Position numbers and translations under genes: made by a program. From Sanchytrium tribonematis (lineage: Eukaryota), in the NCBI GenBank assembly GCA_018985235.1, contig JADGIG010000021.1, positions 1 to 42,145 on the forward strand: a stretch of DNA of 42,145 nt, written 5' to 3'. Within the stretch, counting starts at the first letter, position 1; the number at the start of each line of letters is the position of its first letter. The notes under the pieces were generated by a model that saw only the letters and a list, made by a program, of their open reading frames with translations, did no database searches and was not told the origin of the DNA. Positions 464-42,145 of the stretch are shown one piece after another.

Positions 464-3439
464 CACCAGCTGAGATTTAATTTTTCTAATTGTCCAATGG
501 CTGCAGCTACATCTTTTTGTGCTTTTTTTCTCATGTAAAAAATAGGGCAATCTCTATTAGAGCAAATAACATCTTGACAAAGTGATCCTTGACAGCGTTG
601 ACATTCAGTCCAAAGTTGCGAGCACTTTTCCTGCTTCTCTGCTGCATCTTTTTGTTTAGTCAGGTAGATTTCAGAATATCTAGGAATACAATTTTGACAC
701 AATCCCTTTCGTCCATTTGATAATGGAACCCTACAACCTAAACAAGTTTCTGTCTTGGTAACAAATTTCATTAATCCACCCACAGATGACGTAGTTTGAT
801 GGATATGTCTGGTATGATCTCCTTTTACTAAGTTAAACAATTATACATAAAATATTTTCAGCGTTACTTCCCAAAATAGGTTCAAATAATCGGACCAAGG
901 GCTTAGAGAGTTGGTTTTCCAAGTAGTATTGCGTATCTATACTGATATTATTGTCCAATACATAAATGGGATCTTCTGATTTTTCATATGTTTTGGCATG
1001 TCGCGCACCTTTAACAATAACATAAGCAACACGGTCACCTAAATTAGGTGCACTTCCAGCGTCTCTTTGTTTCATTTTTTTAGCAAGCTCAACATGCGGC
1101 TGCTTGTTTTCATACTCTTCTTTGCTTAATTGCTTAGTAATAACAAGATGGCTCATATCGACCTTATTTTGTAGCAAATCGCTAATGACAGATTTAGCAT
1201 AATCTACAGCTCCATTGGGGTCTCTGTCAATCAAAATTTTATCCAAACAGTAGTCAATTACATTACCTACAAGTTGACAATTGTCTCTTCGTACAGATTC
1301 TATTCCTTTAGCGTCCATCTTATCATGCTTATCAGGTTTTGTCCAATACAACCCCGCATATCTTTTCTTGTTCATTAGTAAATAGGGAAAATAAACTTTC
1401 TCAAACTCAAGATTGATAGGCTTAATAAAATTTTTTGTCACATATTTTGCAGCTTCTAGTCCAAGATCCATAACTTGTGCCATATCACTTGGACCGAATT
1501 TTATCATAACAGAGTCAGTATCCCCATATATAACATCTGCATCAAAATCATAACCATTTGCTTTGGTGTATTTCTTTTCCACAAAGTCTCTAGTCAATTC
1601 AATCATTTCTCTACCGAAGGCAGTAACGCTAGCCGATACTTCTAAACAAGGCAAACTGCCAATTGTAGCACCAGTGAATCCATAAACTGAATTTGCACTG
1701 ATTTTCAAAGCTAGTTGACGACCATTTAGGACAGCCTTTTTGAAAGGATCCGTCTCATTTTTCAAGTCAAACTTAGCTTTCTTTCTTGCACCAAGTAAAT
1801 CCGCCAAGATTAAAGGCAGAAGTCCTTCTCTTATATGTTTTTTAATAAAGCAATCGCCAGTAGGAGTTTTAGTGTAATGTTCGCCTTCTTTCAGATTTTC
1901 TTTTTCTATTGTTTTCTTGTCTAGCAATGTAGTATAACAAAGGTTGTGCGCCATCATAATCGAAGGATACAATGATGAAAAATCGAGAGTTGCAATAGGA
2001 ATATCATAGTAACCACGTTTGGGCTCTAAAACCGTAGCGCCTTCATAAGTGTCGTCATAATTGGCACCTTCTCCTTTTCTGCTTTGAACAACATAACCAG
2101 TTTCCTTCGTTTTACGAAATAATTGAGACAGAACCTTGATTTGTTGGCCTCGACTTAATAGAAAATTAAATGGAACTCCACAAACTCTACTCATTTCGAT
2201 GTAATTGATCAAAGTCATTAATTTGCGCATAAGTAGAAGAGGTAGTTCAGCATCTTTTATGCAATAAATGGCAAGTCTACGTCGAGTGTCTTGATTTCCA
2301 TTTTGAAGTTCCGTTATAATAGAATGATGAACATCTTCTTTCTGATCGCCAATAAATTCAGCAGATACAGCATTCAATGAGTAACTTCTCAGCTTATAGT
2401 CCCTCAAAATGACAGCCATCATATCTACAATCACTCTGCCATCTATATTGAATTCTTTTGAGTCTCTAGTACCATAAGCTCTACTACTAAATCTAGTATT
2501 CTTCGCCTTTGTTTCATTGTCCTTTAGCCTTCCAAAATAAGGAAATTTTTTAATTTTTAACGCTTTTGCTCTATCTAAAAGATAAGGCAAATCAAAATTT
2601 AATATGTTGTAGCCAGTTATTACGTCAGGATCGCATTCCACAAAAAATTTTGAAAATTGCAACAGCAGGTCTTGTTCTTTGTCGTAACTTCGTACTTTTG
2701 AACCTGCGATTGGCGCGCAACTCTTAAGAGTAAAAACAGTCTTGGATTTATAGTCAGATCCCTCAATAGCTAAAACGCATGCTATCTGAATTACAGAGTC
2801 ATGTTCTGGTTCCGGGAATATACCTTTTCGGTTACTACATTCAATATCAAAACTAAATATCTTCAAGGGCGCCATTTTGGAATACTCTCCATTTGTGGGG
2901 TGAGAAACTAAATCATTAATACTTATATCTACCTCAATGTCGCAATTGGAAACTCCATTTTCACTTCTTAATTTATATTTTCCTTCAGGCAATTCAAGCC
3001 AATTCATACCTACAATGTCGTGGTCCACCATTGCTTTCAACAAACCTATATTCAGAACATCGGCATCGTATACTTCAAATGAACCAAAACTGCCATTTTC
3101 CGGTCCTGAGGCTGAAGGTGAGATTAGCTCTCTTTGTAATTTCTTGATTTGACTTGGGGTATCTGCCTCGATTTTAAACATTTCTTGCTCATTTGGGCTG
3201 TAATAAAGCAAGATTTTCTTTTTAGTTCTTGTAATTTTGCAGTTTGATCCAGTGATACGATTACAATATGCCTCGAACTTTTGCAAATTCAAATTCTTGT
3301 AATTACAATAGATATACGGTCTATAATCGTGAACATGACAACACACCGATCTTTCGTCTTGCGTTCTACCGTAGAAAACTAATTCGAATTTATATTGTTG
3401 ATTTTCTTCTGCCTCGATTTGCTGAAAAATTATGGACAT
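463..3439 (-). CDS. POL3: DNA polymerase delta catalytic subunit, 2 exons (3439-847, 827-463), 985 aa
   Basis: Exonuclease FDIEC, polymerase DFSSLYPS, KISANSVYG and YGDTDS. Exon 2 carries the CysA/CysB motifs. Removing the 19-nt intron gives NILLKGDHTR in frame. Confidence 0.97.
828..846 (-). other. 19-nt spliceosomal intron in POL3 (phase 1)
   Basis: GTATAATTGTTTAACTTAG. Removal joins the two ORFs in frame. Confidence 0.93.
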
Positions 3440-3486
3440 CAAGGAGAATTTATTCTATAATTTTTTAAAAAAAAACGAGAATAGAA

Positions 3487-4597
3487 CTATTTGAAGTAAA
3501 GTCTAATGGCTTCATCAGTTCTTGTGGCTGTGGGGCAATAAGGACACTTTAATTTGTTGCTGTTTTTAGCAAGATTTTGCAACGATTCATAACAAATCAT
3601 ATGACCACATTTTAGCAGCATTGCCGGATTAGTCTCTGTAGCCTGTTCTTTAGAAACAGGACACACAAAAAGCGAGTGGTATCGAAAGTCGTTGGAAATT
3701 GGAACTTCAACTGGTAACTCATTTGTCTGTGACCATTCCGCTTTCTTGTCTTTCATGACTGTGCACATTTTTGTTATAATAGGCAAGGCCGTAGTTCCAA
3801 CCAAGGTGCTATATTAAATTGTTTTACCTAACGAACAGTGGTGAAGTTGGAGCCAACCCAACGTGAAGACAAAATTCGGAAGTAAATTGCTTCTCTGTTT
3901 GCTGCCATAATTGAGGATCATCAAATTCTGCATAAGGGGTGTTTTTAAGATCGCTATAGATGACGCAGGTCGCCAGTCTCTTTATTTCCGATCCGTGTTC
4001 TTCAAAAAAACCAGATAAATGATCTCTTGCATACGATAAAGCCATTGTCGCCTGACTTTTAGTAGCATTCAAATTTAAAGGATATTCTATTTCGCCTTTT
4101 AAAATTTGTAGGTATTTTAATTTGTGCAATTTAAAAGTAAGTAAATTTTTCTGTATTTTGGAAGCCCACTTTAAAGCACTATCTAAATTTTTGGCTTGAA
4201 AGTCCAGCAAGATTTGATTTAATTCCGAAAAATGGTGTTGCAATTTGAGAATTTCCTCATTCGTTCCCAGTTTTAATTCTTTTACCAAAGCATTCACAAC
4301 ATTAAATTTACCATTTCTAATTAAGTATTCCATAATTGTTTTGTTTAGCAACTGGTGATTACCATCACAAACCTCATCAGGTTCCCAATAAACTTGTAGG
4401 TCTTGCTGTTTTTCATATTTTTTTGTAACCTTATTTAAATTTAAAGCAATTCGCTTCGCTTCTTCATGAATTTGATCTCCTAAGATATTTTGTTTTGAAG
4501 GATCCAAATCTGCAATAATATCGCAATTTTCGATCAATCTCTGACAAAAATCAGAGTGCTCTCGTCTCCATTTATGATACTCTAATGATTCAGCCAT
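3487..4597 (-). CDS. RMD5: GID/CTLH complex RING subunit Rmd5/GID2, 2 exons (4597-3828, 3808-3487), 363 aa
   Basis: LisH/CTLH/CRA region ([26 protein letters not shown]) and C-terminal ELPVEV...[13 protein letters not shown]...CGHMIC...KCPYCP. First in-frame ATG is at 4597. Confidence 0.92.
3809..3827 (-). other. 19-nt spliceosomal intron in RMD5 (phase 2)
   Basis: GTAAAACAATTTAATATAG. Removal gives [15 protein letters not shown]. Confidence 0.92.
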
Positions 4598-4618
4598 TAT
4601 CCGTGTCTCAAATCTTGT

Positions 4619-6598
4619 ATGCAAAAATTACAGAAAACTTTTGAGAGTGGCAAGACAATTTTTATCGCTTTTCTGACTGCTGGCTATCCAAATATAGATG
4701 CGACTGTTGAACTTGTTCTTGAAATGGAAAAGAATGGAGTAGATGTCATTGAATTGGGATTTCCATTTTCTGATCCATTAGCAGATGGTCCGACAATCCA
4801 GTACGCTAATGAGATTTCATTAAAAAATGGAATGAATGTGGATAAATATCTTAATATTGTTGCCGAGATTAGGAAGCATTCCGACATACCTCTTTTGATG
4901 ATGACTTACTACAATGTCGTATTGCAATATGGTCTGGAGTCACTGAGTTCGAAGATGCAAAAGCTTAAAATGAATGGGTTTATAATTGTGGACTTGCCTA
5001 TGGATACTAAATTTGTTCATGTCTGTAGCAAATATGATTTGACTTTTATTCCTTTTATCACCCCATTAACGCCTTCAGATCGAATGCGGTTTTTGCTAAA
5101 GCAAGCATCTACGTTTGTTTATGTCGTGAGTCGATTAGGTGTTACAGGAAATTCAACTGATTTCAATGAAAAAGAATTGGAAAGTTACTTGGCGTCTATA
5201 AGAAAATTCAGTCGCCATCCCCTTGCTGTAGGATTTGGTGTTAGAACTCCGGTTCAATTTTTGACAATTGGAAAATTTGCGGAGGGAGTTGTTATTGGAA
5301 GCGAGATTATAAAGCTCATAAGAGATAACCAAAATTATAAATTAGCGGTGAGTGAGTTTGTGAAGAGTATTTCTGACGTCAAATCGAATAAGCAATTTAT
5401 GCTGGATAGTGGCGATTCGGAAAGTGCTGAAGATATAAAGATTGATTTACCTGGAATGTTTGGTGAGTTTGGAGGAAGTTATATTCCTGAAATTCTTCAT
5501 TTTTGTTTGAATCAGCTTTCAAATGAATTTGAAAAATGTAAAAGCGATAAGGAATTTTGGAACGAATTTTACGATTTATATTCATATGTAGGAAGGCCTA
5601 CCCCTCTATATTTTGCCTCAAGATTAAGCAAGCATGCTGGGGGAGCTAAAATCTGGCTCAAAAGAGAGGACTTGACCCATACTGGTTCTCACAAAATCAA
5701 CAATGCTATCGGGCAAGCGTTATTGGCAAAGCGACTTGGCAAAAAAAGAATTATTGCGGAGACCGGAGCTGGCCAACATGGGGTCGCCACCGCGACTGTT
5801 TGTGCGAAACTAGGACTAGATTGTGTAGTATATATGGGCAGAGAAGATACAGAAAGACAAGAACTTAATGTCTTTCGAATGAAAATGTTAGGGGCTAAAG
5901 TTGTTCCTGTTGAATCTGGGTCTAAAACTTTAAAGGATGCAATTAATGAAGCGATGCGTGACTGGGTTACGAATGTTGGTGATACACATTATTTGGTTGG
6001 ATCTGCTATCGGGCCTCATCCGTTTCCTACAGTTGTGAAAGAATTTCAAAGTATCATCGGTAAAGAAACGTTGAAACAGCTTGGAACTTTACCTGATGCT
6101 GTAGTCGCGTGTGTAGGAGGTGGATCTAATAGCATTGGTATGTTCGCGCCGTTCATAAGTGAGCTTTCAGTTAAGTTATACGGTATAGAGGCCGCTGGAA
6201 ATGGTCTAGACAGTGGTAAGCATTCTGCACCTCTTAGTAAAGGCAAACCGGGCGTTTTACATGGCACCAGGACATACCTTATGCAGGATTCTAACGGGCA
6301 AATAGCCGAAACACACTCTATAAGCGCTGGTTTGGATTATCCGGGAGTTGGGCCTGAACATTCATTTTTAAAAGATTCTAAAAGAGCGATTTATTTATCA
6401 GCAACTGATGAAGAATGTTTGCAAGGATTTAAGCTATTATCAGAATTAGAGGGAATCATTCCTGCTCTAGAAACCAGTCATGCAATTTTCGCATCAATAG
6501 ATATTGCAAGAAATATGAAGCCAGAGGAAAATCTTGTAATTTGCCTATCTGGTAGGGGAGACAAGGATGTGGCAACAGTTATGCGGCTATTAAATTAA
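4619..6598 (+). CDS. TRP5: Tryptophan synthase, fused alpha-beta (fungal type)
   Basis: Alpha motif [17 protein letters not shown] followed by beta motifs [20 protein letters not shown] and [15 protein letters not shown]. Confidence 0.98.
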
Positions 6599-6605
6599 TT
6601 ACTCT

Positions 6606-7364
6606 TCAATCTTCAAGCATGTCTTTGAGATTTTTCAATTCTTTAAATGTCTTAGGAACCTTTAAAGGTGACAAAATTGAGACACCACTTTCAGGTGCCA
6701 CCTCACTTTTTGAAAACTTTAATTGAGACTGCTTTACTAGCAGCTCAGCCACAGCTAGTAAAGCAGATCCCTCAAATATTTCTTTTGAAATGCTTTCCAA
6801 ACTATCATTTGCGAGTTTGTTTACATACCAGCAAAAATCGCTATTCTTGGATAGTGAATCTACGTTATATAATGGAGGTACAAATTTCAGTTCTTCTTCT
6901 TCAATCGAAGCCTCACAGAGTTGGGAATCAAAAGTTTCCATTCGCTCTTTTAAGGAATAGTTTTTCTCGTTTACAAACATCATTGCGTTAATTTTTGGAT
7001 GGGTATGTAATAAATCAGGTTTTACATTAAATGTATTGGACTCAAGCAGTTTTCCAGCCAATTTGCTGTTCTTACGAATCGTTGAAAATGACTCATCTAT
7101 TTGGACATTGTAATTTGCAGAAGTATCAAATATGCAATCTACAACATAAGGCATCTCAGGCTCTTCGACTTTTAATGGGCTTTTAATATTTTGAATTTTC
7201 AAAATTTTCTTTACTTGTAAAACATGCGCATGGCATAACTTTGTAAATTGAATGTGAGATTTGCATTCTTTAGCATGTCTTTGCATCATTTTTGAGCAGA
7301 ACCTGCACTTCTCATCTGCTTTTTTCAATTTTTTGCCAATGCATTTGTCGATAAACTCCTCCAT
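6606..7364 (-). CDS. Hypothetical protein (252 aa)
   Basis: Long ORF filling the space between neighbours, with an upstream ACTCCTT motif. No family recognised. Confidence 0.65.
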   Translation of the reverse strand: MEEFIDKCIGKKLKKADEKCRFCSKMMQRHAKECKSHIQFTKLCHAHVLQVKKILKIQNIKSPLKVEEPEMPYVVDCIFDTSANYNVQIDESFSTIRKNSKLAGKLLESNTFNVKPDLLHTHPKINAMMFVNEKNYSLKERMETFDSQLCEASIEEEELKFVPPLYNVDSLSKNSDFCWYVNKLANDSLESISKEIFEGSALLAVAELLVKQSQLKFSKSEVAPESGVSILSPLKVPKTFKELKNLKDMLED

Positions 7365-7427
7365 CAAAATAGCGAAAGGAGTATTTTTATAATTTATTCC
7401 AAGGAATTTATAGCGACCTAACTATTC

Positions 7428-8936
7428 TCAACCATTGAGCGATTTCTCTATTAAACACTGGTATTGTTCAACTTTCAATGGCTTCCACGGGAATCTCAGT
7501 ACTCGTCCAAATAAATTTTCTTTCGGAGATAAGCTTCTTGTACACAGATCTTTCAATGAGTCTTCGAATTTATAAAAATAATGGCATTGTTGAGGATCGA
7601 CAGTTCTTCCAGGACTCATTACGTTTTCATCATTGACATGCTTCATTTCTAGAGATGCACTTAGCCATGAAGGTTTTAAATTATGGTCCAAAGAATTGTT
7701 TTCAAATTTATATGGCAGTTGACCATCAAAATTGCCTTGAATAAATAGGGCATCACTGGAGAGTGGGATATTAAAAGAGCTTGGAAACAGATGCCACTCA
7801 TCTCCAAGACACACGGTAGAATTTTCCGGCAAATTTTTAAATAATGATAAGGTGTTGCGTCTAGGGATGATGGCTGTAATTCTAAAAATTGAAAACAGTA
7901 AAAATGATGACAAAAGAATTAGGTAAAGTTGCTTAGAATTTTGCTTCACTTTATATATGATATGGCACATCTCCAAAGCCAAGAGTGGATATATAGGATA
8001 GAGGAATCTTTCTTCCTTGTGAGGCTGAGCAAAAAATACGGACAGCCAAATAATGATTGCAATGGAAGATATCAATCTCATTCTGTCAAAAGAAAGTAAG
8101 GACAAAATGATACTAAAAGGAATAAGAATAGCCAAGGGTCCCCAATGAAGTATCAACACTTTTAAATAATATGACATTGGTTCAATTCCATACAAACTGG
8201 GACCGTGTTGACTAAGTATATTATATTTGACAATATTCCAAGCCGCAAAAACAGGCTTTTTATAAAAGTATGAATCTATTGCGTAGCTCAAACTTAAAAC
8301 AACAATAGATTGAATAATACCGTAAAGCAAATACACCTTAAGAAATCTTAATTTTGTATAAATAAGATCTACTAATTGCATCACAACTAGTAATCCACTA
8401 AATGGCCAGCAAATGGCAGACATAGATACAATGCACGAAAGACTAATAAATCTTTTTCCTTGTGCCAAAGAAGCATAAGACACTGCAACAAGTGTCATAC
8501 AAGTCGAAGAAGGCAAGAGTGCCACAGTCGAGACCAAAATTCCTGGTGAAAAAGACATTAACAGAACCATGATTATCTCATAGTCCCTGCTTCCGAATTT
8601 TTTGCTGCATATATTAATGAAATAATAAAAACTTGCAAAATTCAGCAGAGATAAGATATATCTGGCTTTTAGGAAAAATAGATCATGTTCGGATTTAAAT
8701 GCCAATGTTAAAAAGTAGAATATGAGTAAATATGTGTAGGAGCGAATTGCATATCTTGGATCATATTCCCAAGTCATAAATCCCTTTCCATAATGAAGAA
8801 AATGCAAGGGTTCCCAGTAGTTGTAGGTTTCGTCACAATCATTAATAAATCCATACTGAGCCGCCAATATGCCAGAGGCAAATAAAATAGCCTGAGAAAT
8901 TAGTTTCATGAACAGCACCCCATGATGAATTTTCAT
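7428..8936 (-). CDS. ALG9: Dol-P-Man alpha-1,2-mannosyltransferase (GT22)
   Basis: DCDETYNYWEPLHFL...TWEYDPRYAIRSY and QPHKEERFLYPIYP; multi-pass membrane protein. Confidence 0.93.
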   Translation of the reverse strand: MKIHHGVLFMKLISQAILFASGILAAQYGFINDCDETYNYWEPLHFLHYGKGFMTWEYDPRYAIRSYTYLLIFYFLTLAFKSEHDLFFLKARYILSLLNFASFYYFINICSKKFGSRDYEIIMVLLMSFSPGILVSTVALLPSSTCMTLVAVSYASLAQGKRFISLSCIVSMSAICWPFSGLLVVMQLVDLIYTKLRFLKVYLLYGIIQSIVVLSLSYAIDSYFYKKPVFAAWNIVKYNILSQHGPSLYGIEPMSYYLKVLILHWGPLAILIPFSIILSLLSFDRMRLISSIAIIIWLSVFFAQPHKEERFLYPIYPLLALEMCHIIYKVKQNSKQLYLILLSSFLLFSIFRITAIIPRRNTLSLFKNLPENSTVCLGDEWHLFPSSFNIPLSSDALFIQGNFDGQLPYKFENNSLDHNLKPSWLSASLEMKHVNDENVMSPGRTVDPQQCHYFYKFEDSLKDLCTRSLSPKENLFGRVLRFPWKPLKVEQYQCLIEKSLNG

Positions 8937-9135
8937 TATGCAATTTGCAAAATTTTCTGCTAAAATATATATGCAAAGTTAAATTTTACGAGACATTAAT
9001 TGTTAAATGTATGTTTGTAAATTATTTGAAATTGACAACTTCTCCAACTCGGAATTTAGTTTCCAATGAAACACGTGGAATTTATAAATTGAAAACTTTG
9101 CACTAGTTGCAACGAGTATAAACTTTGAGCACAAG

Positions 9136-10074
9136 ATGTCAAGGGTACGTAAGGAAGAATATTTTGCAAAATTAGAAAAACTAGTCGCTGAGAACAAGAC
9201 TATATTATTGATTAACGTCGACAATGTGGGAAGTAATCAGATGCACAAAATCAGACAAAAGTTGAGAGGACAAGCAACTATTTTGATGGGAAAAAACACT
9301 CAAATTCGTAAATGTGTAAAGGAAGTGTCTTTGAAGAAGAAAGAATTAGAACCGCTTTTAGAATATTTAGTTGGAAATATCGGTTTAGTTTTTACTAATG
9401 AAACCGATATCGCAGCCATTCGTAAGAGTTTGGTAGAAGATCGTGTTCAAGCACCTGCGAAATCTGGTGCACTTGCGGTTGTATCAGTTGTTGTCCCTGC
9501 AGCTAATACTGGTATGGAACCTGGTAAGACTAGTTTCTTTCAAGCTTTGGGAATCCCAACAAAGATTACCAGAGGTACCATCGAAATTGTCCAGGATGTG
9601 GAGATTTTGAAAGCTGGAGACAAAGTCGGACCTTCTGAGGCTGCTTTATTGAATATGCTTAACATATCTCCTTTCACTTATGGTTTAAATGTTATTCAGG
9701 TTTACGACAAGGGAATCATATTTCCGCCTGAAATTCTTGATATCACTGATGAAGAGATCAAAGAGTCTGTTCAAGGTTGTATCGCCGAAATTGCCGCCTT
9801 GGCTTTGGGTGCTAATGTACCGTCTGTTGCGTCTGTACCGCATATTCTGATCAACACCTTCAAAGATTTGTTGCACGTTTCTTTGGCTACTGAGATTGAA
9901 CTAGAACAAACAAAGAAATTGAAAGAAATTCTTGCAAATCCTGAATTACTAGCAGCTGCACAAGCAGCAGCTACAAGCACTGCTCCAGCTGCAGGTGGTG
10001 CTAAAAAAGAGGAAGCAAAGGAAGAGGAAAAGGAAGAGTCAGACGATGATATGGGATTTGGTTTATTCGATTAA
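9136..10074 (+). CDS. RPP0: 60S acidic ribosomal protein P0 (uL10)
   Basis: VDNVGSNQMHKIR, GKNTQIRK, TSFFQALGIPTKITRGTIEI and C-terminal EESDDDMGFGLFD. Confidence 0.99.
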   Translation: MSRVRKEEYFAKLEKLVAENKTILLINVDNVGSNQMHKIRQKLRGQATILMGKNTQIRKCVKEVSLKKKELEPLLEYLVGNIGLVFTNETDIAAIRKSLVEDRVQAPAKSGALAVVSVVVPAANTGMEPGKTSFFQALGIPTKITRGTIEIVQDVEILKAGDKVGPSEAALLNMLNISPFTYGLNVIQVYDKGIIFPPEILDITDEEIKESVQGCIAEIAALALGANVPSVASVPHILINTFKDLLHVSLATEIELEQTKKLKEILANPELLAAAQAAATSTAPAAGGAKKEEAKEEEKEESDDDMGFGLFD

Positions 10075-10079
10075 ATAAA

Positions 10080-11882
10080 CTATTTCTTTTTCAGATATAG
10101 CATTTTGAAAGCAAGCTGGCCTGGTAACTTTGTTATTTGGTTGTATTGAACAACGTCCTGCTTTCTGGATATGTTAAGCAATTTTTTCATGGCTTCTTTT
10201 CCATTTTTTGTAGTATCTTTCGCGCTTCTAATAAGATCAAATGGATTAATGTCCCGTGGCAAATTGACCAGGTTGTCTTGGACTTCCGCCTCCTCCTCAA
10301 AATGTAAATCGCAATGGATATATATAAGCTGTCGACAAACGTTTGCCTTTCTAATTAGGTAACCGCTAAAATTAATGACAGATATAATTTTCCTATCTCC
10401 TAAAATTTGCTTTAGTATTTGATTTGTTTTTATAGCTTCAAGTTCCTCGTCATTTAATTCAATATATTCAATTTTTTGATATTTTACACCGAATATTTCA
10501 AAAACAGATGTAGCTTGCGATTTTAAAATAAAAACAGTATTATTTCGTGGTATATTAAAAGTAAAGATAGGATAAATTGACATTTCGGGTGTTTTTCCTC
10601 CAAACTTACATGAAGTAGATTTCTCGTCTGTTTCTACTGAGATTTGTGTTGAAGAGTTCATTTGAAATTCACCAGTTTGTACTTCAGTATCCTTGTAGAT
10701 AATAGAATGACCTACTGCTTTTTCTTGTTTTTCAATATCCGAGCTTGAGAAAATTTGTGTTATAATTTCTTTATCGGATTCTTCTACTAGTTTTAGACGC
10801 TTAGAGCTATGCGTTTGGCCGTCTTTGGATCGTTTTCTTTTCAATTCAGGATCTTTTTCTTTCTCCTTAAAGGTATCTTTTTCCGAAGAAGCAATCAGCG
10901 GGCTTTCCGTCTTCGATGTTTTTCTTAGCTGCTTGTTATCATTCAATGGTCCACTGATCCTCCTCCCACCTCTTTTCTTTCTAATTCCCCTAACGGGCCT
11001 TTCACCAGTTCTTTCCACATTTCGTTCCTCAACTGAATCTAATTTGTCTGTATCCGTCATATCAGAATCGCCCTCGTACTGTGGCGATCTATTACTCATT
11101 TCTGCAAATCTTTTTTCATACATTAATAACTTTCGTTCTTCTCTCGAAAGGTTTCCCTTTTTATTGTACCATTTTGACCACGGATCTTTTTCCACTGCAT
11201 CTTTACATCCTTCAGTTGCAACGTCAGCTGGCGTATTACCTTCGTTGTCTTTAATAAACATATCCGCCCTAGCATCAACTAAGATATCCACAATTTCGCG
11301 GTTTCCCAAAATACAAGCATGATGAAGGGAACTTAGACCATTGGAATCGACAGTGTTAAGATCTACAGTGTACCTTACAAATTCTCTTACCATTGAGACG
11401 TTCTCATTTAATACAGCATAGTGTAAAGGTGCAAATCCCTCTTCATCAGTATTAACCAATAAATCGTCATCTATATCCATTTGCTCAATCAGGGCTCTTA
11501 AAAATACACAGTCCATAGCACTTCCTCTTTCTGCCAAACGAACCACTATAGATTTGTTTTCACTGTCTTTAAGATGAATGTGTTTAACCATTTCTTTAAA
11601 AAATCGTATCAATTTCCGATTATAAGTAGTTTTTCTCATGCCATCAAACTCATTCGGATTCGTTCCATGAAAAAGGCAAAGCTTAAGCAAAGGAGGATAG
11701 TCTAGCAATTTCTCCAACACTTTCTTGCTCAAATGTTTTTTCAAATTCCATTTTAAAAGTTGGGACCACAAGTGATAAGGTATGCTTAATGTGTGCTTGA
11801 TAAGATAGTTCTCTATTTGGCCCTTTTCCTCAAGAGATTTCAAATGCTCTTTCCAGTTTTGTAATTCATTAATTTTGTCCAT
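10080..11882 (-). CDS. Ankyrin-repeat protein with basic/NLS-like middle region
   Basis: GFAPLHYAV, GLSSLHHAC and GNTPADVA ankyrin repeats; KKRGGRR and KRKRSK basic clusters. Confidence 0.85.
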   Translation of the reverse strand: MDKINELQNWKEHLKSLEEKGQIENYLIKHTLSIPYHLWSQLLKWNLKKHLSKKVLEKLLDYPPLLKLCLFHGTNPNEFDGMRKTTYNRKLIRFFKEMVKHIHLKDSENKSIVVRLAERGSAMDCVFLRALIEQMDIDDDLLVNTDEEGFAPLHYAVLNENVSMVREFVRYTVDLNTVDSNGLSSLHHACILGNREIVDILVDARADMFIKDNEGNTPADVATEGCKDAVEKDPWSKWYNKKGNLSREERKLLMYEKRFAEMSNRSPQYEGDSDMTDTDKLDSVEERNVERTGERPVRGIRKKRGGRRISGPLNDNKQLRKTSKTESPLIASSEKDTFKEKEKDPELKRKRSKDGQTHSSKRLKLVEESDKEIITQIFSSSDIEKQEKAVGHSIIYKDTEVQTGEFQMNSSTQISVETDEKSTSCKFGGKTPEMSIYPIFTFNIPRNNTVFILKSQATSVFEIFGVKYQKIEYIELNDEELEAIKTNQILKQILGDRKIISVINFSGYLIRKANVCRQLIYIHCDLHFEEEAEVQDNLVNLPRDINPFDLIRSAKDTTKNGKEAMKKLLNISRKQDVVQYNQITKLPGQLAFKMLYLKKK

Positions 11883-11919
11883 TTGAAATTGGCAACTCCC
11901 TTGTTTTCAAAAAAATTTA

Positions 11920-13104: not shown

Positions 13105-13160
13105 GAGCGAGGAGTAGTTTTAGTTACAAACACAATTAATTTAATAAATGGCAAAATCTA

Positions 13161-13484: not shown

Positions 13485-13511
13485 TTTGATACTTGGGGGA
13501 AACAGTTGACA

Positions 13512-15473: not shown

Positions 15474-15492
15474 GGCAAGAGGGGGTAATTTA

Positions 15493-16074: not shown

Positions 16075-16087
16075 CGATCAAGTCAAA

Positions 16088-26700: not shown

Positions 26701-29452
26701 TTACTGAATAATTCCAAAAGCAATATCTACCAAGCCACCAACGTCTTTGCAGAACTCCAATAATTTTTTCTCTGTTTTTCTCGCAGCCATGCCCCATTCG
26801 TCCTCCAGATCACTAAATTTGAACTTTAAAAATGCCAAAGCGAAAATGGACAAAGCAGCTTCAACACTAATGGTGGTTTTTAATTCCGAGACCAATTGTG
26901 ACGCACTAGAAAATTTGGAATTGCTGACTATGTTTGCAAAGTGATCCGAGACAACATAGAGTCCATTAAATTGCTGATTTTTCAAAAAATCAATTAATGT
27001 TATCTCACCACTAGAAAAAACACTCCCCTTAGGCATACTTTCAGGCAAAGAATAAGTCGGATTGGATTCAGCATACTTATCCTTTTCCTCGTATTCGATA
27101 CTTTCCTCCTCGTTAGCCATAATTGGTACACTTGAAACCTCTTTCTTTCTCATAAGTGACGGTTTCGGAATATTGAATCCAAAACTCGATTTCTTTGATT
27201 TCTTTGCGAATTCTATAGCCTGATCTTGCACTGGCTCACTATCATACATGAGCCCAGATTCCTGCAATGCCGCGGCCCCAGGTGGAGCGGAATACATCGT
27301 CGGCTGTGCCATCATTGGTGGTGCTGTCATCTGTGGAGACATCATGGAACTAGCTACCATGGGTTGCATTGGTGCAGACATAGTGACAGGTGGAGGACCG
27401 TGCAAAACTCCACCAACCGCCATACTTCTAATTGGCATAGCTGCGGCTGGGACATAAAATTGTGGTCTATCTGCTGGAATTGGCATGGCTATACTTTTAG
27501 AGACCATTTCTCCCTCTTCCTTATTGGGGAAAACTAAGATCCAGCTGGTTTTCTTGGATGATATACTAAAATTTAGTAAACTTTGAGTAACAAATGCCTC
27601 CGCATCATCAACCTTAAAAACATCTTTCACCACAGCTTGAAAAGTTGAATTTGAAAAAATGCTCTCTTGATAAAGTCTTTTTAGTGCCAAAGCGTGCATA
27701 GTCTTGCCGTTAATGATTTTGGGTTTGACAGGAACTGTTATTTCTATTGGACCATCTGGAGTATTGCCTCTAATTGTCACAGATTGCGGCAATTCTTCTG
27801 TGTCTTTGACCAATATCTGTAATAACAATCTTTTGCTTGGGTGAATAACTGGTAGTTCAATTGGTAAAACCAAACGAGTTACAATAGACTTGGATTCTGA
27901 ATTCGAGATAAGTTTAGCAGCCTTATTAAAAAAGCTTAAAGGCCCTACGCTTTTCTTAGTTAAACTTTCTGAGGATTTCTCTTTTGTAATACAACTTGAC
28001 CAATCCACACTTAAGTTTTCAACTGCCGGCATCAAAGATCGTTTTAATAGTGCCATACACTTCTTTTCCATTCTTTCTCCTTCAATGACGTACTCAGCAG
28101 TACCATTTCCAGCAATGGCAAGCCCATTAACTAATCCCGTCGAAACTCCACTACCGATTCCCAATGTATAAACACGGACTTTGTCAAGATATTCGGATGC
28201 GTTTGACGCATTTCTAGTAGCATTTAAACATTCCGATTCGTTACTGACCGAACCATCTGTTAAGACAAAAATTTGGCGCTTGTACCCTCCGATTTTTGGC
28301 ATTTTATAAATATGCTGGAGAGGCTGCAGAATTTCAGTTCCCTGTATTAGTAATATATACGCCTAAATTTGCTGATAGATTTTTAATGCTATCTTCCGCA
28401 GCTTTCAAAGTTTGTTCTGTATATTTCTGAGAAGTGGGAAATAAGCTCTCGAAAGAGCTTCCAAACCCTACTATATTAAAGAAGGAGTCCTCGGGAATGC
28501 TTTTCAAAAATACTAGCATAGCGCTTCTGACGAGTTCTGTGGGATTTCCATCCATAGAGCCAGATCTATCTAATAAAAAGATTAGCTCGCTTGGAACTTC
28601 CTTCAATTTAAATTGGGGTACGAAGGCCATAGACAAACACTGGCTTTTTTCAGTAGTCAAAGCAATGTTAGAGTGATTTTTTTGATCAATTTTTTTCAGA
28701 AACTTTGAAGTCACATCTTCAGACTTCTTAAACTCTTTGCCAGCATCCACCCATTCATCATCAATCAATCCTGGAAAGCCCTCGTATTTTTCTAAATAAA
28801 AGACTGGTTCGTCCAAGTTTTCACATTCAATTACCACTGAGAAATCTTTGGTAGTTTTTAAAGATCCTGAGACACTACCAGTATTTCCCGACAAAATTGA
28901 TTTTAATTCTTGAGAACTGTCTATTGCGAGAATTTTTGAGGTCATGTTTAATTCCATTTGCAGATGAACTTTGTAAGAAGCGTTAGAAGTGAATTCAGGG
29001 TTGATGTTTTCTTCGTGTGACTTTCCGGTGCTAGATGCTGCAATATATCTAGGAACCATTGTAATTGGGTAGCTGAATCTAACATTGTTTGCATTTACAT
29101 CATTTGTTAGATCCTGCACAAATTGTATCCTGATTATCGCGACTGAGCTAGGGCCAAGCCTTCCTAAATCCATTTCGAACATATCTTCCGCAGTTTGGTG
29201 CAGGACGGCGGTCGTATTTCCCTCATTTTTAGCATCTTGGTATACCTTTTCGGCCGAATCTTTGGTGACCAATTTTCCAATTACTAAATCATCATTGATT
29301 TTTGCCTCAAATCCAATGACGCAAATTGAGTCATTGACTGGAAATTTATATTTAAACTCCACAGCTTTATCAGAATTATTTTTGAATTGCTGCTCAATGG
29401 TGACGTTAGCCACAGAGTCCACCAATTTGCAAAAAATGTTTAAGTTTTCCAT
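26701..29452 (-). CDS. VIT + vWA domain protein (VWA5A-like), 2 exons (29452-28361, 28341-26701), 910 aa
   Basis: VIT domain (YKFPV...CVIGFEA), MIDAS FLLDRSGSM, FNIVGFGS, VLTDG and LGIG. Splicing restores ANLGGTEILQPL. Confidence 0.92.
28342..28360 (-). other. 19-nt spliceosomal intron in the VIT-vWA gene (phase 0)
   Basis: GTATATATTACTAATACAG. Removal restores the conserved LGGTEI motif. Confidence 0.94.
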
Positions 29453-30414: not shown

Positions 30415-31213
30415 ATGAAATTATTAGGTGAAGAAGTTATTACGATAAGACATCTTTCCAAGTCATTTGGGAATGTGCAGGCCTTAAGAGATATACACCT
30501 TAACATAGACTCTGAGTTTACCCCAATAAAAGCTGGGGAATTTGTAATATTGAGAGGACCCTCAGGTGGCGGGAAAACTACTTTGCTGAATTTAATTGGT
30601 ACTCTAGATAATCCCACTTCGGGAGAAATTCAATTGCTTGGAGAAAATATTGATAAAGGAACATCTGATGCCTTTTTAGCAAATGTAAGATTAAGGAAAA
30701 TGGGCTTTGTGTTCCAGGCATACAATTTGTTACCACATTTAAGTGCATTTGAAAACGTTGAGTTACCAATGCTGATGGCTAATATGGGCGTCAAGCAGAG
30801 GAGAGAGAAAGCGTTGAAGCTATTGAAAATGGTAGGTTTACAAGATCGAATTTCTCATTTACCATCTGAATTGTCTGGTGGTGAGCAGCAGCGTGTGACT
30901 ATTGCAAGGTCTTTGGCCAACAATCCCGCGTTGCTTCTTTTGGACGAGCCTACTGGAGACCTAGATTCGAGAAACGTATTAGTTCTTAATTTAGACTGTG
31001 GAAATTATGAATTTATTGTTAAAAATCAATCTTGAAAACAAAACAACTTGTGTGATGGTGACTCACAATGATGATATTGAATGCTATGCCGACAGGTTAT
31101 TATATCTCAAAGATGGTCAGTTCCAAAAACAGGTCTTAAATCGAATCCAAGTTCCATTGGATTACGAAGAATATTTGGAATTTCTAAAAAGAAAAGACAA
31201 TACCAAGGACTAG
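30415..31213 (+). CDS. Stand-alone ABC ATPase, LolD/MacB-like, 2 exons (30415-30975, 30995-31213), 259 aa
   Basis: Walker A GPSGGGKTT, GFVFQAYNLL, LSGGEQQRV and LLLDEPTGDLD; H-loop VMVTHN in exon 2. Confidence 0.94.
30976..30994 (+). other. 19-nt spliceosomal intron in the ABC ATPase gene (phase 0)
   Basis: GTATTAGTTCTTAATTTAG. Removal gives GDLDSRNTVEIMNLL. Confidence 0.94.
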
Positions 31214-33191: not shown

Positions 33192-34277
33192 TCAATAGCG
33201 AGAGCCTCTATTTGGGTATCTGTCCCTGCTATCGTATCTGGAATTCCCACGAAAATTCCTATCATTATTGCTGCGGGGGTTGTTATTATGTGTTCTAGAC
33301 CGATCGCTTCCATTTCTCTCATATCTGGCATTACTTCTGTCTCTACTATATGGAGCTCTATTTCCAATTTGTTCTCTTCGTTGTGGGGCTCCTCTATACC
33401 CAGATTTATAGTCACGAGAATCATGCACTCGTTTGGCATCAGTTACATTTGAATTTGAATTGTTTGTTGGAGCAACAGGATTTTCCTGAACCGGTCTCGA
33501 AGAAGGTGAGGGACGGTAAGGTTCTCTTCTATCATTAAAATTTCGTCTATCTTGTTGTTTTTGATATTGTTTGACACTCTCTTCAACAAGGTCCGGCCGA
33601 GTATCTTGTAAAAATTTAAAATGCTCCCTAATTTTGTGCCAACCTTGGTGTTGCTTACCATCGATATGTATACCAGTTCTATTAGTGGAAACATCATTAA
33701 CAATTAATAATTTTGCACAAACCGGGCAGACATCAAAAGATTTGTCATCTTGTTTAGTCACATTTTTTAGCTGCTCTAAATCTGCTTGCAATTGGTCTAC
33801 TTGCGTAGCCATGGTGTGACTTTCCTCCACCATACCTTTTAACCCATATTCTTCAGCTTTTGTAATCATTTCGTTGATCTTTTCATCTAATTCTATTATC
33901 TTCTCCCATCTCTCGTCATTTTCCTCATCAATATCCGCTGAAAATCCGTGAAGTCTAGACTGATGTTTTTTAATTCTTTTGTCTAATTCAAGTACCAATC
34001 TTTGTAAGTAATTGAAAAACCATTGCTCGTATGGGTATTTGTCTTTTTTAGGATCTTGCTCGTATTTTTGCTTCAGACGAATGTCGTGATTTTTACTACA
34101 TGGACCTAAATCAGATCTGTTAGGAAACAACAAACTCGGGCAACCAAAAGGTGAAACCAATTGCCATTTACAAACTGAATCATCCTTAAAGTCTTTATCA
34201 TACTCAATGTCAAAAAAGGGTTGAAATAAGGTATGTACCAAACCTCTTAAAAACTCAACGTCTGCATTTTTGACCAT
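33192..34277 (-). CDS. LUC7: U1 snRNP-associated Luc7-family splicing factor (divergent)
   Basis: FKDDSVCK...CP..LF...SDLGPCSKNH zinc finger 1, coiled coil with AEEYGLKGMVEES, VCPVC...HIDGKQHQGW zinc finger 2, and an R/D/S-rich tail. Confidence 0.88.
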   Translation of the reverse strand: MVKNADVEFLRGLVHTLFQPFFDIEYDKDFKDDSVCKWQLVSPFGCPSLLFPNRSDLGPCSKNHDIRLKQKYEQDPKKDKYPYEQWFFNYLQRLVLELDKRIKKHQSRLHGFSADIDEENDERWEKIIELDEKINEMITKAEEYGLKGMVEESHTMATQVDQLQADLEQLKNVTKQDDKSFDVCPVCAKLLIVNDVSTNRTGIHIDGKQHQGWHKIREHFKFLQDTRPDLVEESVKQYQKQQDRRNFNDRREPYRPSPSSRPVQENPVAPTNNSNSNVTDAKRVHDSRDYKSGYRGAPQRREQIGNRAPYSRDRSNARYERNGSDRSRTHNNNPRSNNDRNFRGNSRYDSRDRYPNRGSRY

Positions 34278-34680
34278 CGTGACAAGGAGTATTTTTGGAG
34301 GGCAAATTTATTAATAAAGCAAAATCCAAGCCTTTATGTTCAATTTTAATCAAAGCACCTTCTATATACACATGGTATCTGAAGTAAGCACTTTATGAAA
34401 ATATCATTTATCACAGCTGAAGGATTAATTTTGTGTGTCAACTCAATACATATCTAATATCACCATAAGCACCGAAAGGGCTACAATCATATTGAATTCA
34501 TGGGATTCATTTATTAGGCAATAGGTTATCAATAAATTCTGGTTTTTTGCTTTTGGTATAGTTATTAATTTCCCAATTTACTTATAGTGAAGATTAAACC
34601 TTTTTTGATATAAATGTTTTTTAAATAACAAGTTGATCGAAATCTGTACCATTCTATATTGTTCATAGTATGCTTGTGTC

Positions 34681-39495: not shown

Positions 39496-40972
39496 ATGGC
39501 CAGTAAGGAATATTCCAATATATATTGCTACAGCGCCGATGACTTTCCGAGTACTGAATCCGGTGTATTAAGAATTACACAAGCAGGAATCGGGTGGAAA
39601 GGTCAATCCGTCATAGCTGTTGCAACAGCTGAAATTACAAAAACACAATGGATGCGTGCATTTCGTGGCTACCAATTGAGAGTATACTGCAAAACCGATC
39701 CTTTCAAAGCCAAGTCCCCATTTATTAAATTAGATGGGTTCGATAGAAATGATTTTGATGAATTAAGTGCTTCCATTAAATCCTTGTACAAGATAAATCT
39801 AGAAGTCAAAGAATGGAATGTTAAAGGCCAAAATTGGGGAAAAGCTGAATTGACTGGTTCTCATTTAAATTTTGTTTGGAATAAGCCCATTTTCGAAATT
39901 CCTTATGGTTGTATTTCAAATGCCAATTTAGCAAATAAAAACGAGGTTGCAATGGATATTGAACCGTGTGAGCACGGTGATCAATTGGTCGATATCAGAT
40001 TTTACGTTCCTGGAGTTACTGCAGAAAATGACGAAACAACTGCCGCTGAATTTTTGTGTAATAGTGTAAAGCAAAAAGCCGATCTTCAAGCAGTATCAGG
40101 GAAATCAATTGTATCCTTTAAAGAATTACCGTTTCTCACCCCCAGAGGCCGGTATGAAATGGATGTTTACGAGGACTTTATACGTTTACGAGGTAAGACC
40201 TATGATTTTAAAATTGAATTTAAAAATATTGTTAAATTATTCAGTTTGCAAAAGCCTGATGACAATAATCACTTGGTCATATTAGCACTAGACCCTCCGG
40301 TATCACAAGGACAAACCAGATACCCTTTCCTAGTAATGAATTTTAGTAATGAAGATGAAGAAGAAATTGAAGTCAATGCGGAACCTGACTTCAAAAAACG
40401 TTACAATTTACCAAATAAGTATGAAAACCCTCTTTATTTCACAATAACAGACGCCATATCGAAAATGTCGACTATCGACACTGTCTTTTCAGGAAGTTTT
40501 CAGAGGTATATTTATTTAATTTAGCCACTTCAAAAAAGGAGGCGTAAAATGTTCATTAAAAGCTAATGAGGGATTTTTGTATTTTCTGGAAATCGCTTTA
40601 CTATTTATTCCAAAGAATTCCATGTACCTTCCATATAATGACATAGCACACGTCAGCTTTTCAAGAGTGAGTGCATCAGGTTCTAATTCTAGTCGCACGT
40701 TTGATATTAGTGTAAATTTAAAAGCTGGTCAACAAATATTATTTTCAAATATTGGGCGCGAGGAACACTCAAGTATACTAAAATTTCTTCAGACTAAGAA
40801 TATTGAAGTCTTTGAAGAGCAAGAAGAAGAGGTGGTTGAAACATTTAATGAAGAAGAAGCCGTTCCTATGGATTTGGATGAAGATGAAAGTTCTCCAGAT
40901 GAGGATTTTAATCCAGGAAAATTAAGTTCAGAGGAGTCTGTTGCTGAAGAAGAGAGCGAGGCAAATGACTAA
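39496..40972 (+). CDS. POB3: FACT subunit Pob3/SSRP1 without HMG box, 2 exons (39496-40505, 40525-40972), 485 aa
   Basis: KGQNWG, IRFYVP, LTPRGRY, LRGKTYDFKI and LDPPVSQGQTRYPFLV. Splicing restores VKCSLKANEGFLY. Acidic tail. Confidence 0.96.
40506..40524 (+). other. 19-nt spliceosomal intron in POB3 (phase 2)
   Basis: GTATATTTATTTAATTTAG. Removal gives FQSHFKKGGVKCSLKANEG. Confidence 0.94.
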
Positions 40973-40989
40973 TAAATATTCATGGGTAT

Positions 40990-42145
40990 TTACTCAGATG
41001 GAAATGTTAACCAAAACGGGTTTGCAAGTACATCCTCTTTCTTGACTCTATCTAAAAGTCCTTCTAATTTCTTTTTGTAATTTATAAGTTGAGAGCTATA
41101 AGGCGTTGGGTCTAAATTAAAAAATATTACCAAAATAGCATTTAAAAACATGCCATTGCATCACTACTTCTTTTCCTTTAATAAGAACTTCTATCCAATT
41201 TGTATTTTCTTTTCCAAAAAGACGATGTGCCATCCCAATACATGATTCACCTTGGCTTGAGATGAGAAATGGATCTGCGCCCATCCAAAGTAAAAGCTGT
41301 ATACAATCAGCATGACCGTGGTAAATTGCTTCATGAAGCGGGGTATATTGGTCAACATTGTCCTGATCATTAACATTTAAATTTGATAGCAATGCCAGCA
41401 TGCACATCCAAACATTTCCACTTCTTGCTGCCAAGTGTAAGAGATTAAACCCAAATTCATTTCTCATTTGCGAGTTTGCATTATATTTTAACAATACAGC
41501 ATTGACGCCCACATTTTGATGAACAAGAAGAGCGAAACAGCTATGTTTGGCAGCTGACGTGGAATTTTTGAGTAGCAAAAGAAGTACAGCCCAATTATTT
41601 CTCGCACAGGCAACGTCAATTGGCAAAACTTGCGCATGAATATTAAAAGTTGGTATTACTTTAAATGACTCAAAACTCTCAGATTTAGGAATGTAATTTT
41701 TGTTATACTCTTTTAAATAAGAGCAGCTTTGAATGCCGTAAACTACTCTAGGAATTCTCTTGATAACATTTGGATCAAATTTATCGGCCGCAGATGTGTT
41801 AATAGGAGCTTCAGAATCTCCATCTGCAGATGCCGAAGTGGTTCTTTCCCACTCAATTTTAGATATACTGTAATCACATTTGACCTTACCTTCCGATTCT
41901 ACTGCAGACCAGATATGTTTCATATCCACCAACTTTGGAGTCTCAACTTTCAAGTGTTCCCCGAGATTTGCAATAAGAGCATAAAGTCCAAGCCGGATAC
42001 CACGCATCTGATCCGCGCCATTTTGGAGTAATAAACTTACACATTCCGGAGAAGTAAGATTACTGGAACAACATGCAGCCATCAAAGGTGTTATATCATA
42101 CCATGCATGATCCAGTTTAGGCTGTTTTGATTGCAACCATTCTTG
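40990..42145 (-). CDS. Ankyrin-repeat protein, 5'-partial, 2 visible exons (42145-41131, 41111-40990)
   Basis: ITPLMAAC, GFNLLHLAARSG and YTPLHEAIYHGH...GADP. The frame is open to the window edge; the last exon is inferred from the intron consensus. Confidence 0.82.
41112..41130 (-). other. 19-nt spliceosomal intron in the ankyrin gene (phase 1)
   Basis: GTAATATTTTTTAATTTAG, an exact match to the consensus. Removal opens 40 further codons. Confidence 0.82.

What the first reader, a model, noticed from the sequence alone, without database searches (positions are those of the whole stretch)
828..41130. All six introns are exactly 19 nt with a fixed-position branch point: a fixed-length tiny-intron splicing system in a fungal-type nuclear genome
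Seen: 828-846(-) GTATAATTGT-TTAAC-TTAG; 3809-3827(-) GTAAAACAAT-TTAAT-ATAG; 28342-28360(-) GTATATATTA-CTAAT-ACAG; 30976-30994(+) GTATTAGTTC-TTAAT-TTAG; 40506-40524(+) GTATATTTAT-TTAAT-TTAG; 41112-41130(-) GTAATATTTT-TTAAT-TTAG. Consensus is GTAW-N6-YTAAY-WYAG with TAA invariant at positions 12-14, in all three phases and on both strands. Five of them restore the frame of recognisable proteins (e.g. LGGTEI, VKCSLKANEG). Known: comparably small introns occur in heterotrich ciliates (15-16 nt), chlorarachniophyte nucleomorphs (about 18-21 nt) and Paramecium (about 20-30 nt), whereas typical fungal introns are 50 nt or more. Inference: the branch A at -6 gives a 14-nt lariat loop and no polypyrimidine tract, too short for normal simultaneous U1/U2 binding, so the spliceosome probably measures length. 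Gene finders with a minimum intron of 20 nt or more would mis-annotate every such gene. I cannot check whether this has already been reported for this organism.
Basis: partly seen in the sequence, partly recalled or inferred. Interest (0 to 1): 0.92.

Follow-up and report, generated by a model that had tools for sequence, protein, structure and literature searches.

The report
19-base introns in a sanchytrid fungus
Six genes in this stretch of DNA from a sanchytrid (a tiny fungal parasite of algae) are each interrupted by a 19-base piece that likely is a spliced-out intron, shorter than the fungal introns found in the papers searched and apparently overlooked in this group, though no RNA was available to show the splicing.

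Summary
All six 19-mers are at the stated coordinates. The window is a sanchytrid nuclear contig (DNA polymerase delta 81% identical to Amoeboradix gromovi; four-member clade, full support). Removing each 19-mer restores a homologue-length protein in five genes. For the ABC gene, a motif-blind search ranks the GT-AG 19-mer first of 1195 deletions, and intronless relatives read identically across the junction. The sixth gene breaks at the same codon in an orthologue. The Pol3 site is shared with a basidiomycete and Coelomomyces, so these are most likely ordinary U2-type introns shrunk to a floor, with the 3' end set by a branch A at -6. 'Exactly 19' holds for 6 of 6 here, but protein tails of a relative imply 20 nt (at least) at two orthologous sites, so a narrow range is likelier than a strict ruler. 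No RNA run was listed: splicing and lariat are inferred. Uniform tiny introns are known (Stentor 15-16, Mikrocytos 16-17, nucleomorphs mode 19 nt); I found no report for sanchytrids, whose published proteomes were called without introns. This scan earlier noted longer tiny introns in Rozella and Neolecta, none in sanchytrids.

The parts
828..846 (-). 19-nt intron, phase 1, in DNA polymerase delta catalytic subunit
   Evidence: Excision restores the GDHTR linker and the C4 zinc-finger domain; rank 1 of 791 deletions against 5 Blastocladiomycota; same break in 3 sanchytrid relatives and 3 other fungi
463..3439 (-). POL3 host gene, 985 aa after splicing
3809..3827 (-). 19-nt intron, phase 2, in RMD5/RMND5A (GID E3 ligase)
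   Evidence: Exon 1 residue 255 aligns to human RMND5A 283 and exon 2 residue 4 to 289, the register that a 19-nt excision gives
3487..4597 (-). RMD5 host gene, 363 aa after splicing
28342..28360 (-). 19-nt intron, phase 0, in a VIT-vWA domain gene
   Evidence: Pfam VWA_3 ends at profile position 76 in exon 1 and resumes at 77 in exon 2
26701..29452 (-). VIT-vWA host gene, 910 aa after splicing
30976..30994 (+). 19-nt intron, phase 0, in an ABC ATPase gene
   Evidence: Rank 1 of 1195 motif-blind deletions; 117 of 119 homologues have the spliced length at the junction; three sanchytrid relatives lack the interruption and read identically across it
30415..31213 (+). ABC ATPase host gene, 259 aa after splicing
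40506..40524 (+). 19-nt intron, phase 2, in POB3/SSRP1 (FACT)
   Evidence: 105 of 114 full-length homologues have the spliced length; tied rank 1 of 714 deletions; same break in 3 relatives
39496..40972 (+). POB3 host gene, 485 aa after splicing
41112..41130 (-). 19-nt intron, phase 1, near the end of an ankyrin-repeat gene
   Evidence: Orthologue P0368 (62% identical) breaks at the same codon with an intron-like tail; no uninterrupted homologue of exon 2 was found
40990..42145 (-). Ankyrin-repeat host gene, 5' part beyond the window; splicing would add about 40 C-terminal residues
33192..34277 (-). LUC7, a U1 snRNP 5' splice-site factor (part of the machinery, not of the introns)
   Evidence: Pfam PF03194, E 5.8e-47

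Best explanation
The six 19-base inserts are likely ordinary U2-type spliceosomal introns of a sanchytrid fungus that have shrunk to about the smallest size its spliceosome would still process. Each reads GTA, eight A/T-rich bases, then YTAAY and WYAG in fixed register (shown). The A at position 14 (-6) would be the branch nucleotide, paired with U2, giving a 14-nt lariat loop; the 3' AG would be chosen by its fixed 5-nt distance from that A, with no pyrimidine tract (inferred). The donor has no G at +5 in any of the six (shown), so U1/U6 pairing would be weak, and the U1 footprint (+1 to +6) and the U2 footprint (9 to 15) nearly touch, so the two would bind in turn or in a remodelled complex (inferred). 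Length uniformity would come from deletion bias pushing against a steric floor of about 14 nt between donor and branch, slightly lineage-specific (19 here, 19-20 in a relative). Retention puts a premature stop in every one of the six messages (shown), so failed splicing would be cleared or give truncated protein.
For: Excision restores homologue register in 5 genes. Conserved residues lie after the junction but before the first Met in 5 genes (19, 14, 13, 4 and 33 residues), which only joining explains. Breaks recur at the same codon in relatives: Pol3 3 of 3, Pob3 3 of 3, Ank 1 of 1, with GTA donors in 6 of these 7 tails and GTR in the seventh; the four long tails put T at -8 and A at -6 before a stop that can be TAG. 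Pol3 ORFs of Violaceomyces, Coelomomyces and an ENA record run into intron-like sequence at the same codon, pointing to an old fungal intron position. The A. gromovi annotation table lists Prp8, SF3B1, U2AF small and large subunits, U1-70K, BBP/SF1, Prp40, Prp21, Prp38, Prp22/16-type helicases, Cwc25, Isy1 and the debranching enzyme Dbr1 (PMC8371127 supplement); the window encodes Luc7. Contigs of DNA run X1 match 1-17072 with no difference or gap at depth 187 (X1 may be the window's source). Stentor's branch A also sits at -6 (PMC9505925); the floor model is that of PMC10245619.
Against: No spliced RNA, lariat or snRNA was seen. n = 6 from one 42-kb window. Against 30 mostly distant Pol3 homologues the best motif-blind deletion is 22 nt and the true site ranks 18 of 791, because most of them lack one residue just upstream; the rank of 1 came only on a 5-sequence Blastocladiomycota set chosen afterwards. 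The VIT site ranks 10 of 231 in leave-one-out. No depletion of cryptic 19-nt motifs in coding DNA was seen (1 observed, 1.25 expected). Relatives' intron lengths are back-translated from protein tails, not read from DNA; their terminal stop could be a branch TAA of a longer intron. Four sites (28342, 30976, 40506, 41112) have no read-level check.
Confidence: 0.7

Rival explanations
1. Same introns, but the spliceosome actively measures from the donor: a remodelled factor counts about 14 nt from GT to place the branch and 19 nt to the AG, so spacing rather than sequence defines the intron.
For: 6 of 6 at one length with weak donors (no +5 G); fixed spacing cuts chance matches from about 1.7 (sum over lengths 14-40) to 0.08 in this window; upstream alternative donors sharing the same AG (40 nt in Pol3, 28 nt in Rmd5) would delete conserved residues.
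Against: Orthologous introns of a related lineage fit 19 nt in Pob3 but at least 20 nt in Pol3 and Ank, with the T-N-A keeping its distance from the 3' end, not from the 5' end; no avoidance of cryptic 19-mers (low counts).
Confidence: 0.22
2. The inserts are not spliced: they are assembly or amplification errors, or the genes are split, frameshifted at the ribosome or decaying.
For: No RNA evidence in hand; sanchytrid genomes were amplified from single sporangia (PMC8371127).
Against: Same breaks in independent relatives; GT-AG ends and a shared internal motif; downstream exons stay conserved (ABC exon 2 is 65 of 72 identical to a relative); homologues have no room for 6 extra residues; essential genes (Pol delta, FACT) are affected; no indel in X1 contigs at two sites.
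Confidence: 0.04
3. The 19-mers are cut by a protein endonuclease (Ire1/HAC1-type or tRNA-type), whose fungal substrates are about 20 nt long (length recalled, no call).
For: Similar length only.
Against: No twin hairpins at the junctions; folding z-scores of the six 69-nt regions run from -0.8 to +1.1; GT-AG ends, branch-like motif, six unrelated genes and a position shared with conventional fungal introns.
Confidence: 0.02

Closest known systems
Chlorarachniophyte nucleomorph introns (Bigelowiella natans, Lotharella oceanica; PMC4035089, passages read)
   Same: Modal length 19 nt (68.8% in B. natans, 49.1% in L. oceanica); ancestral positions shrunk in a compact genome.
   Different: Endosymbiont remnant nucleus of green-algal origin, intron-dense; here a true fungal host nucleus, intron-poor (about 0.15 per kb), with a clear fixed branch motif.
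Stentor coeruleus 15-16-nt introns (PMC9505925, passages read)
   Same: GTA start, A/T-rich, putative branch A at -6, most spliceosomal parts kept.
   Different: Four bases shorter, no strong branch consensus, thousands of introns, ciliate; RNA-supported.
Mikrocytos mackini 16-17-nt introns (PMC10245619, section 7 read)
   Same: Reduced parasite, few introns, uniform length, conserved sequence.
   Different: Rhizarian; only 17-19 spliceosomal proteins plus U2, U4 and U6 found, whereas a sanchytrid table lists U1-70K, Prp40, U2AF and BBP.
Encephalitozoon cuniculi introns, 22-76 nt (PMC3629993, passages; PMC6349667, passages)
   Same: Holomycotan parasite, GT-AG, strict branch motif (TAAYTT, PMC2483917).
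   Different: Longer and variable, many at the extreme 5' end; the six here are 19 nt and 5 of 6 lie at 69% or more of the coding length.
Fixed branch-to-AG introns of Yarrowia, Trichomonas, Giardia (PMC2483917, passages)
   Same: Branch motif anchored a fixed few bases before AG, no pyrimidine tract.
   Different: Their total length is not constrained.
Myxobolid introns, median 22 bp (PMC13644364, abstract and introduction)
   Same: Convergent extreme shortening in an opisthokont parasite.
   Different: Animals; reduced splice-site motifs; longer median. I did not read their minimum lengths.

Membership tests
U2-type spliceosomal introns | GT...AG ends | tested here: met
   6 of 6
U2-type spliceosomal introns | Branch-site motif (YTRAY) near the 3' end | tested here: met
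   YTAAY at 11-15 in 6 of 6; sequence only, use as branch not shown
U2-type spliceosomal introns | Removal restores the homologous reading frame | tested here: met
   5 of 6 by homologue register; sixth by shared break
U2-type spliceosomal introns | Precisely removed from mRNA through a lariat | not testable with these tools
   No RNA holder listed
U2-type spliceosomal introns | Major-spliceosome proteins present in the lineage | tested here: met
   Luc7 in the window; Prp8, SF3B1, U2AF, U1-70K, BBP, Dbr1 in the A. gromovi table; a relative, not this genome
U2-type spliceosomal introns | U1, U2, U4, U5, U6 snRNAs present and complementary | not testable with these tools
   No genome held; none in the window
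U12-type introns | Donor RTATCCTT (motif recalled) | tested here: not met
   Positions 5-6 are A or T in 6 of 6
Uniform tiny introns (Stentor, Mikrocytos, nucleomorph kind) | Length at or under about 21 nt in a range of 1-4 nt | tested here: met
   6 of 6 at 19 nt in the window; 19-20 inferred in relatives
Uniform tiny introns (Stentor, Mikrocytos, nucleomorph kind) | The narrow range holds genome-wide | not testable with these tools
   No genome held; 95% lower bound on the 19-nt share is 61%
Uniform tiny introns (Mikrocytos variant) | Strongly reduced spliceosome | tested here: inconclusive
   Many U1, U2 and second-step factors are listed for A. gromovi; Slu7, Prp18, U1-C, Prp39 and Smu1 gave no hit by name or recalled KEGG id, but only about half the proteins are annotated and split genes can be missed
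Ire1/HAC1-type non-spliceosomal introns | Two stem-loops with a cut site in each loop (recalled) | tested here: not met
   No such fold at any of 6 sites

The most novel reading that the evidence does not exclude
All sanchytrid introns are 19-20 nt, the shortest genome-wide intron class in fungi, and they are spliced by a spliceosome that still has U1, U2AF and branch-point-binding protein but has been rebuilt so that donor and branch, 13 bases apart, are recognised as one unit. That would give a fungal model, directly alignable to yeast structures, of how the roughly 50-nt steric limit between donor and branch is broken, and it would mean that about one sanchytrid gene in five is truncated or split in the published proteomes.
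Probability: 0.45. Interest if true: 0.8.

Novelty: new member of a known kind. Interest (0 to 1): 0.64.

Why it matters
In human extracts a donor-to-branch distance of about 50 nt is needed and 46 nt abolishes splicing (PMC6692369, passages); here it would be 13 nt. The known lineages that do this (heterotrich ciliates, mikrocytids, nucleomorphs) are far from yeast; a fungus makes residue-level comparison with solved yeast spliceosomes much easier. It adds an independent origin of uniform tiny introns, at positions that can be traced to longer introns in other fungi. In practice, sanchytrid proteomes were called as plain ORFs on genomic contigs, so genes with such introns are truncated or split (6 of 33 protein genes in this window), which can bias the gene-loss and 'reduced repertoire' conclusions drawn for the phylum.

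Tried and rejected
No whole genome is held, so no genome-wide scan or snRNA inventory. Run search with window 1-10000: 1 DNA run, no RNA holder listed. Metagenome scan with Pol3 returned 80 loci, none above 68% identity, so no sanchytrid DNA; the 78 of 80 that cover the junction region align through it in one piece, which says nothing on sanchytrids. Rfam and ARAGORN on the window: one tRNA-Ile, no snRNA. Hidden in-frame (3n) introns: no insertion over 2 residues in Pol3, Pob3, ABC or Ank against their sanchytrid relatives, no strict-motif hit at 18, 21 or 24 nt; the other genes were checked only by Pfam continuity and the profile scan. The best non-intron candidates (35 nt in ACC, 22 nt in TAF9, 17/19 nt at 35907, 19 nt at 35315) lie in unbroken ORFs, antisense or between genes. 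Cryptic-motif avoidance in coding DNA: no signal at 19 nt, counts too small. First motif-blind Pob3 test failed through a mis-anchored alignment and was rerun with a longer anchor. The ABC tree did not finish and the Pob3 tree is the quick version. U12-type and Ire1-type readings rejected. Supplement PDF 2 of PMC8371127 has no text; its main supplementary PDF and one table are too large to read, and the annotation table is cut early in its second sheet.
Full report
Observation. The six sequences are in the window exactly as reported: 828-846(-), 3809-3827(-), 28342-28360(-), 30976-30994(+), 40506-40524(+), 41112-41130(-). GTA (1-3), TAA (12-14) and AG (18-19) are invariant, inner GC is 8%, and none has G at +5. 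Phases are 1, 2, 0, 0, 2, 1. The strict consensus gives 6 hits at length 19 against 0.08 expected and none at 14-18 or 20-39; since the pattern came from the six, I also ran leave-one-out profiles, which rank the held-out site first of 231 GT..AG 19-mers in 5 of 6 cases and tenth for the VIT site. A profile scan of 18,444 GT/GC..AG intervals of 14-60 nt put the six in the top nine; the other three were a 35-mer inside the unbroken ACC frame and two longer versions of the same introns. The window is about 95% genic with 33 protein genes in my list (one small gene's coordinates were corrected), so density is about 0.15 introns per kb.

Organism. The Pol3 ORF is 81% identical to a protein labelled Amoeboradix gromovi in EukProt and 77-79% to two unnamed ENA proteins, then 61% or less to other fungi. 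These four form one long-branched clade with 100/100 support, the window being sister to the other three at modest support (83/80). So the window is a sanchytrid distinct from A. gromovi. Sanchytrium tribonematis is the only other sanchytrid genome in the paper I read (PMC8371127; first part of the text, keyword passages and one supplementary table), which makes it a candidate by elimination; identity is not established.

Each removal restores a protein. ABC ATPase: among 1195 stop-free, frame-restoring deletions scored against 30 homologues without regard to splice motifs, the GT-AG 19-mer ranks first; 117 of 119 homologues have the spliced length at the junction, and relatives P0247, P0248 and A. 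gromovi P0366 have no interruption there and read identically across it. Pob3: 105 of 114 full-length homologues have the spliced length and the site ties for first of 714 (a first try was mis-anchored). Pol3: the join restores the GDHTR linker and the zinc-finger domain. Of 104 full-length homologues 87 are one residue shorter near the junction, so the blind test on 30 of them prefers 22 nt (true site 18 of 791, best of the 5 GT-AG options), while against 5 full-length Blastocladiomycota, a set chosen afterwards, it ranks first. VIT-vWA: Pfam VWA_3 stops at position 76 and resumes at 77. Rmd5: the two exons land on human RMND5A in the register a 19-nt excision gives. In these five genes conserved residues lie between the junction and the first downstream Met, which rules out simple split genes. 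Ankyrin gene: no uninterrupted homologue, but orthologue P0368 (62% identical) stops at the same codon. Contigs of DNA run X1 match 1-17072 with no gap at depth 187, covering two sites; X1 may be the window's source. The other four sites have no read-level check.

Relatives show both conservation and slack. ORFs called on genomic DNA run into the intron until a stop, so their tails can be back-translated. All seven relative tails (Pol3 3, Pob3 3, Ank 1) begin with GT at the same codon position, six with GTA. The A. gromovi Pob3 tail and ENA P0130 fit 19 nt. ENA P0004 (Pol3) and P0368 (Ank) cannot end in AG before base 20, so they are 20 nt or longer; at 20 nt they have T at -8 and A at -6 like the window's. 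P0130 and P0368 share a contig size and probably a species. In P0130 and P0368 the base before the branch A is a pyrimidine, so TAA relaxes to TNA. The signal thus keeps its distance from the 3' end while the 5' span varies by one base. These lengths are inferred from protein, not read from DNA.

Ancestry. Of 119 Pol3 homologues, 6 stop at the junction: the 3 sanchytrid relatives plus Violaceomyces palustris, Coelomomyces lativittatus and one ENA protein, whose tails fit GTGAG-type or GTA-type donors and longer introns. A partial Neolecta Pob3 ends at the same junction as the window's Pob3, which is suggestive only. So at least one 19-mer sits at an old fungal intron position: these are shrunken conventional introns, not new inserts. 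The ABC intron is absent in three relatives; given the tree, one loss in their ancestor or one gain in this lineage fit equally.

Machinery. The window encodes Luc7. The published A. gromovi annotation table lists Prp8, SF3B1, both U2AF subunits, U1-70K, BBP/SF1, Prp40, Prp21, Prp38, Prp22/Prp16-type helicases, Cwc25, Isy1 and Dbr1; Slu7, Prp18, U1-C, Prp39 and Smu1 gave no hit (KEGG ids recalled). Only about half the proteins are annotated, so absences are weak.

Mechanism. Shown: sequence anatomy, frame restoration, shared positions, and a premature stop on retention in 6 of 6. Inferred: U2 pairs with bases 9-15 and bulges A14; the first step makes a 14-nt loop; the AG five bases on is taken without a pyrimidine tract, as in Yarrowia, Trichomonas and Giardia (PMC2483917, passages). 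In human extracts about 50 nt between donor and branch are needed (PMC6692369, passages), so the usual simultaneous U1/U2 and U6/U2 geometry cannot hold unchanged at 13 nt; weak donors without +5 G fit reduced or sequential U1/U6 pairing. I put 0.93 on these being spliceosomal introns, 0.7 on the floor-plus-anchored-branch account (the deletion-bias floor model of PMC10245619), 0.22 on an active ruler from the donor, and about 0.06 on non-spliceosomal or artefact readings. No twin hairpins of the Ire1 kind are present.

Comparison and novelty. Uniform tiny introns are known: Stentor 15-16 nt with branch A at -6, Mikrocytos 16-17 nt, nucleomorphs with mode 19 nt. Among fungi and allies the shortest I found in print are Encephalitozoon cuniculi, 22-76 nt; among animals a 22-bp median (abstract and introduction). 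Searches for sanchytrid plus intron gave 2 papers, in each of which 'intron' occurs once, in a reference title; wider searches (listings and abstract starts only, except the papers named) showed no report of 19-nt fungal introns. The library lacks most subscription journals, and the genome paper's main supplementary PDF could not be read, so a mention may have been missed. The genome paper called ORFs with TransDecoder on genomic contigs, and the truncated ORFs of this window and of A. gromovi stand in the public protein collection. Earlier notes of this scan describe 26-31-nt introns in Rozella and about 38-nt introns in Neolecta, and none mention sanchytrids; I did not test them.

Verdict. 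Observation confirmed; interpretation partly supported. It works like, and on every testable feature belongs to, the U2-type tiny-intron kind, in a fungal phylum where it seems unreported. The strict ruler is unproven and slightly weakened by the 20-nt cases. Interest 0.64; new member of a known kind.

Noticed in passing
window 33192-34277 (-): LUC7, a U1 snRNP factor for 5' splice-site choice; worth comparing with yeast Luc7 given donors without +5 G.
   Followed up: partly
PMC8371127 supplementary table, A. gromovi sheet, rows 1135-1136: The branch-point-binding protein BBP/SF1 is annotated on two adjacent ORFs of one contig, as expected if its own gene carries a frame-breaking intron.
   Followed up: no
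P0366 (A. gromovi ABC orthologue): Lacks the window's intron but starts at an internal Met, which hints at a different interruption upstream, so intron positions may turn over among sanchytrids.
   Followed up: partly
the six host genes: Five of six introns lie at 69% or more of the coding length, the reverse of the 5' bias described for the first-found microsporidian introns.
   Followed up: partly
window 34278-34680: About 400 bases without a clear ORF in a genome that is 95% genic; no Rfam hit. Could be a promoter region or a diverged non-coding RNA.
   Followed up: partly
window 32226-32465 (+): Small ribosomal protein S19 family gene, probably mitochondrial, 79 aa.
   Followed up: yes
window 18482-18555 (+): tRNA-Ile(AAT) overlapping the last 19 bases of the phosphopantetheinyl transferase ORF on the other strand; X1 contigs show loose ends and higher depth here, as for a multi-copy tRNA.
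   Followed up: no
window 17043-17154: Run X1 holds a second version of this stretch with six substitutions at about a third of the depth: an allele, a second strain or a paralogous piece.
   Followed up: no
window 29506-30372 (-): Highly diverged queuine tRNA-ribosyltransferase-like ORF; only the C-terminal part matches Pfam TGT.
   Followed up: no
whole window: Extreme compaction: many intergenic gaps of 5-50 bases; fused tryptophan synthase alpha-beta (4619-6598) and an intronless 2001-aa acetyl-CoA carboxylase (19231-25236).
   Followed up: no
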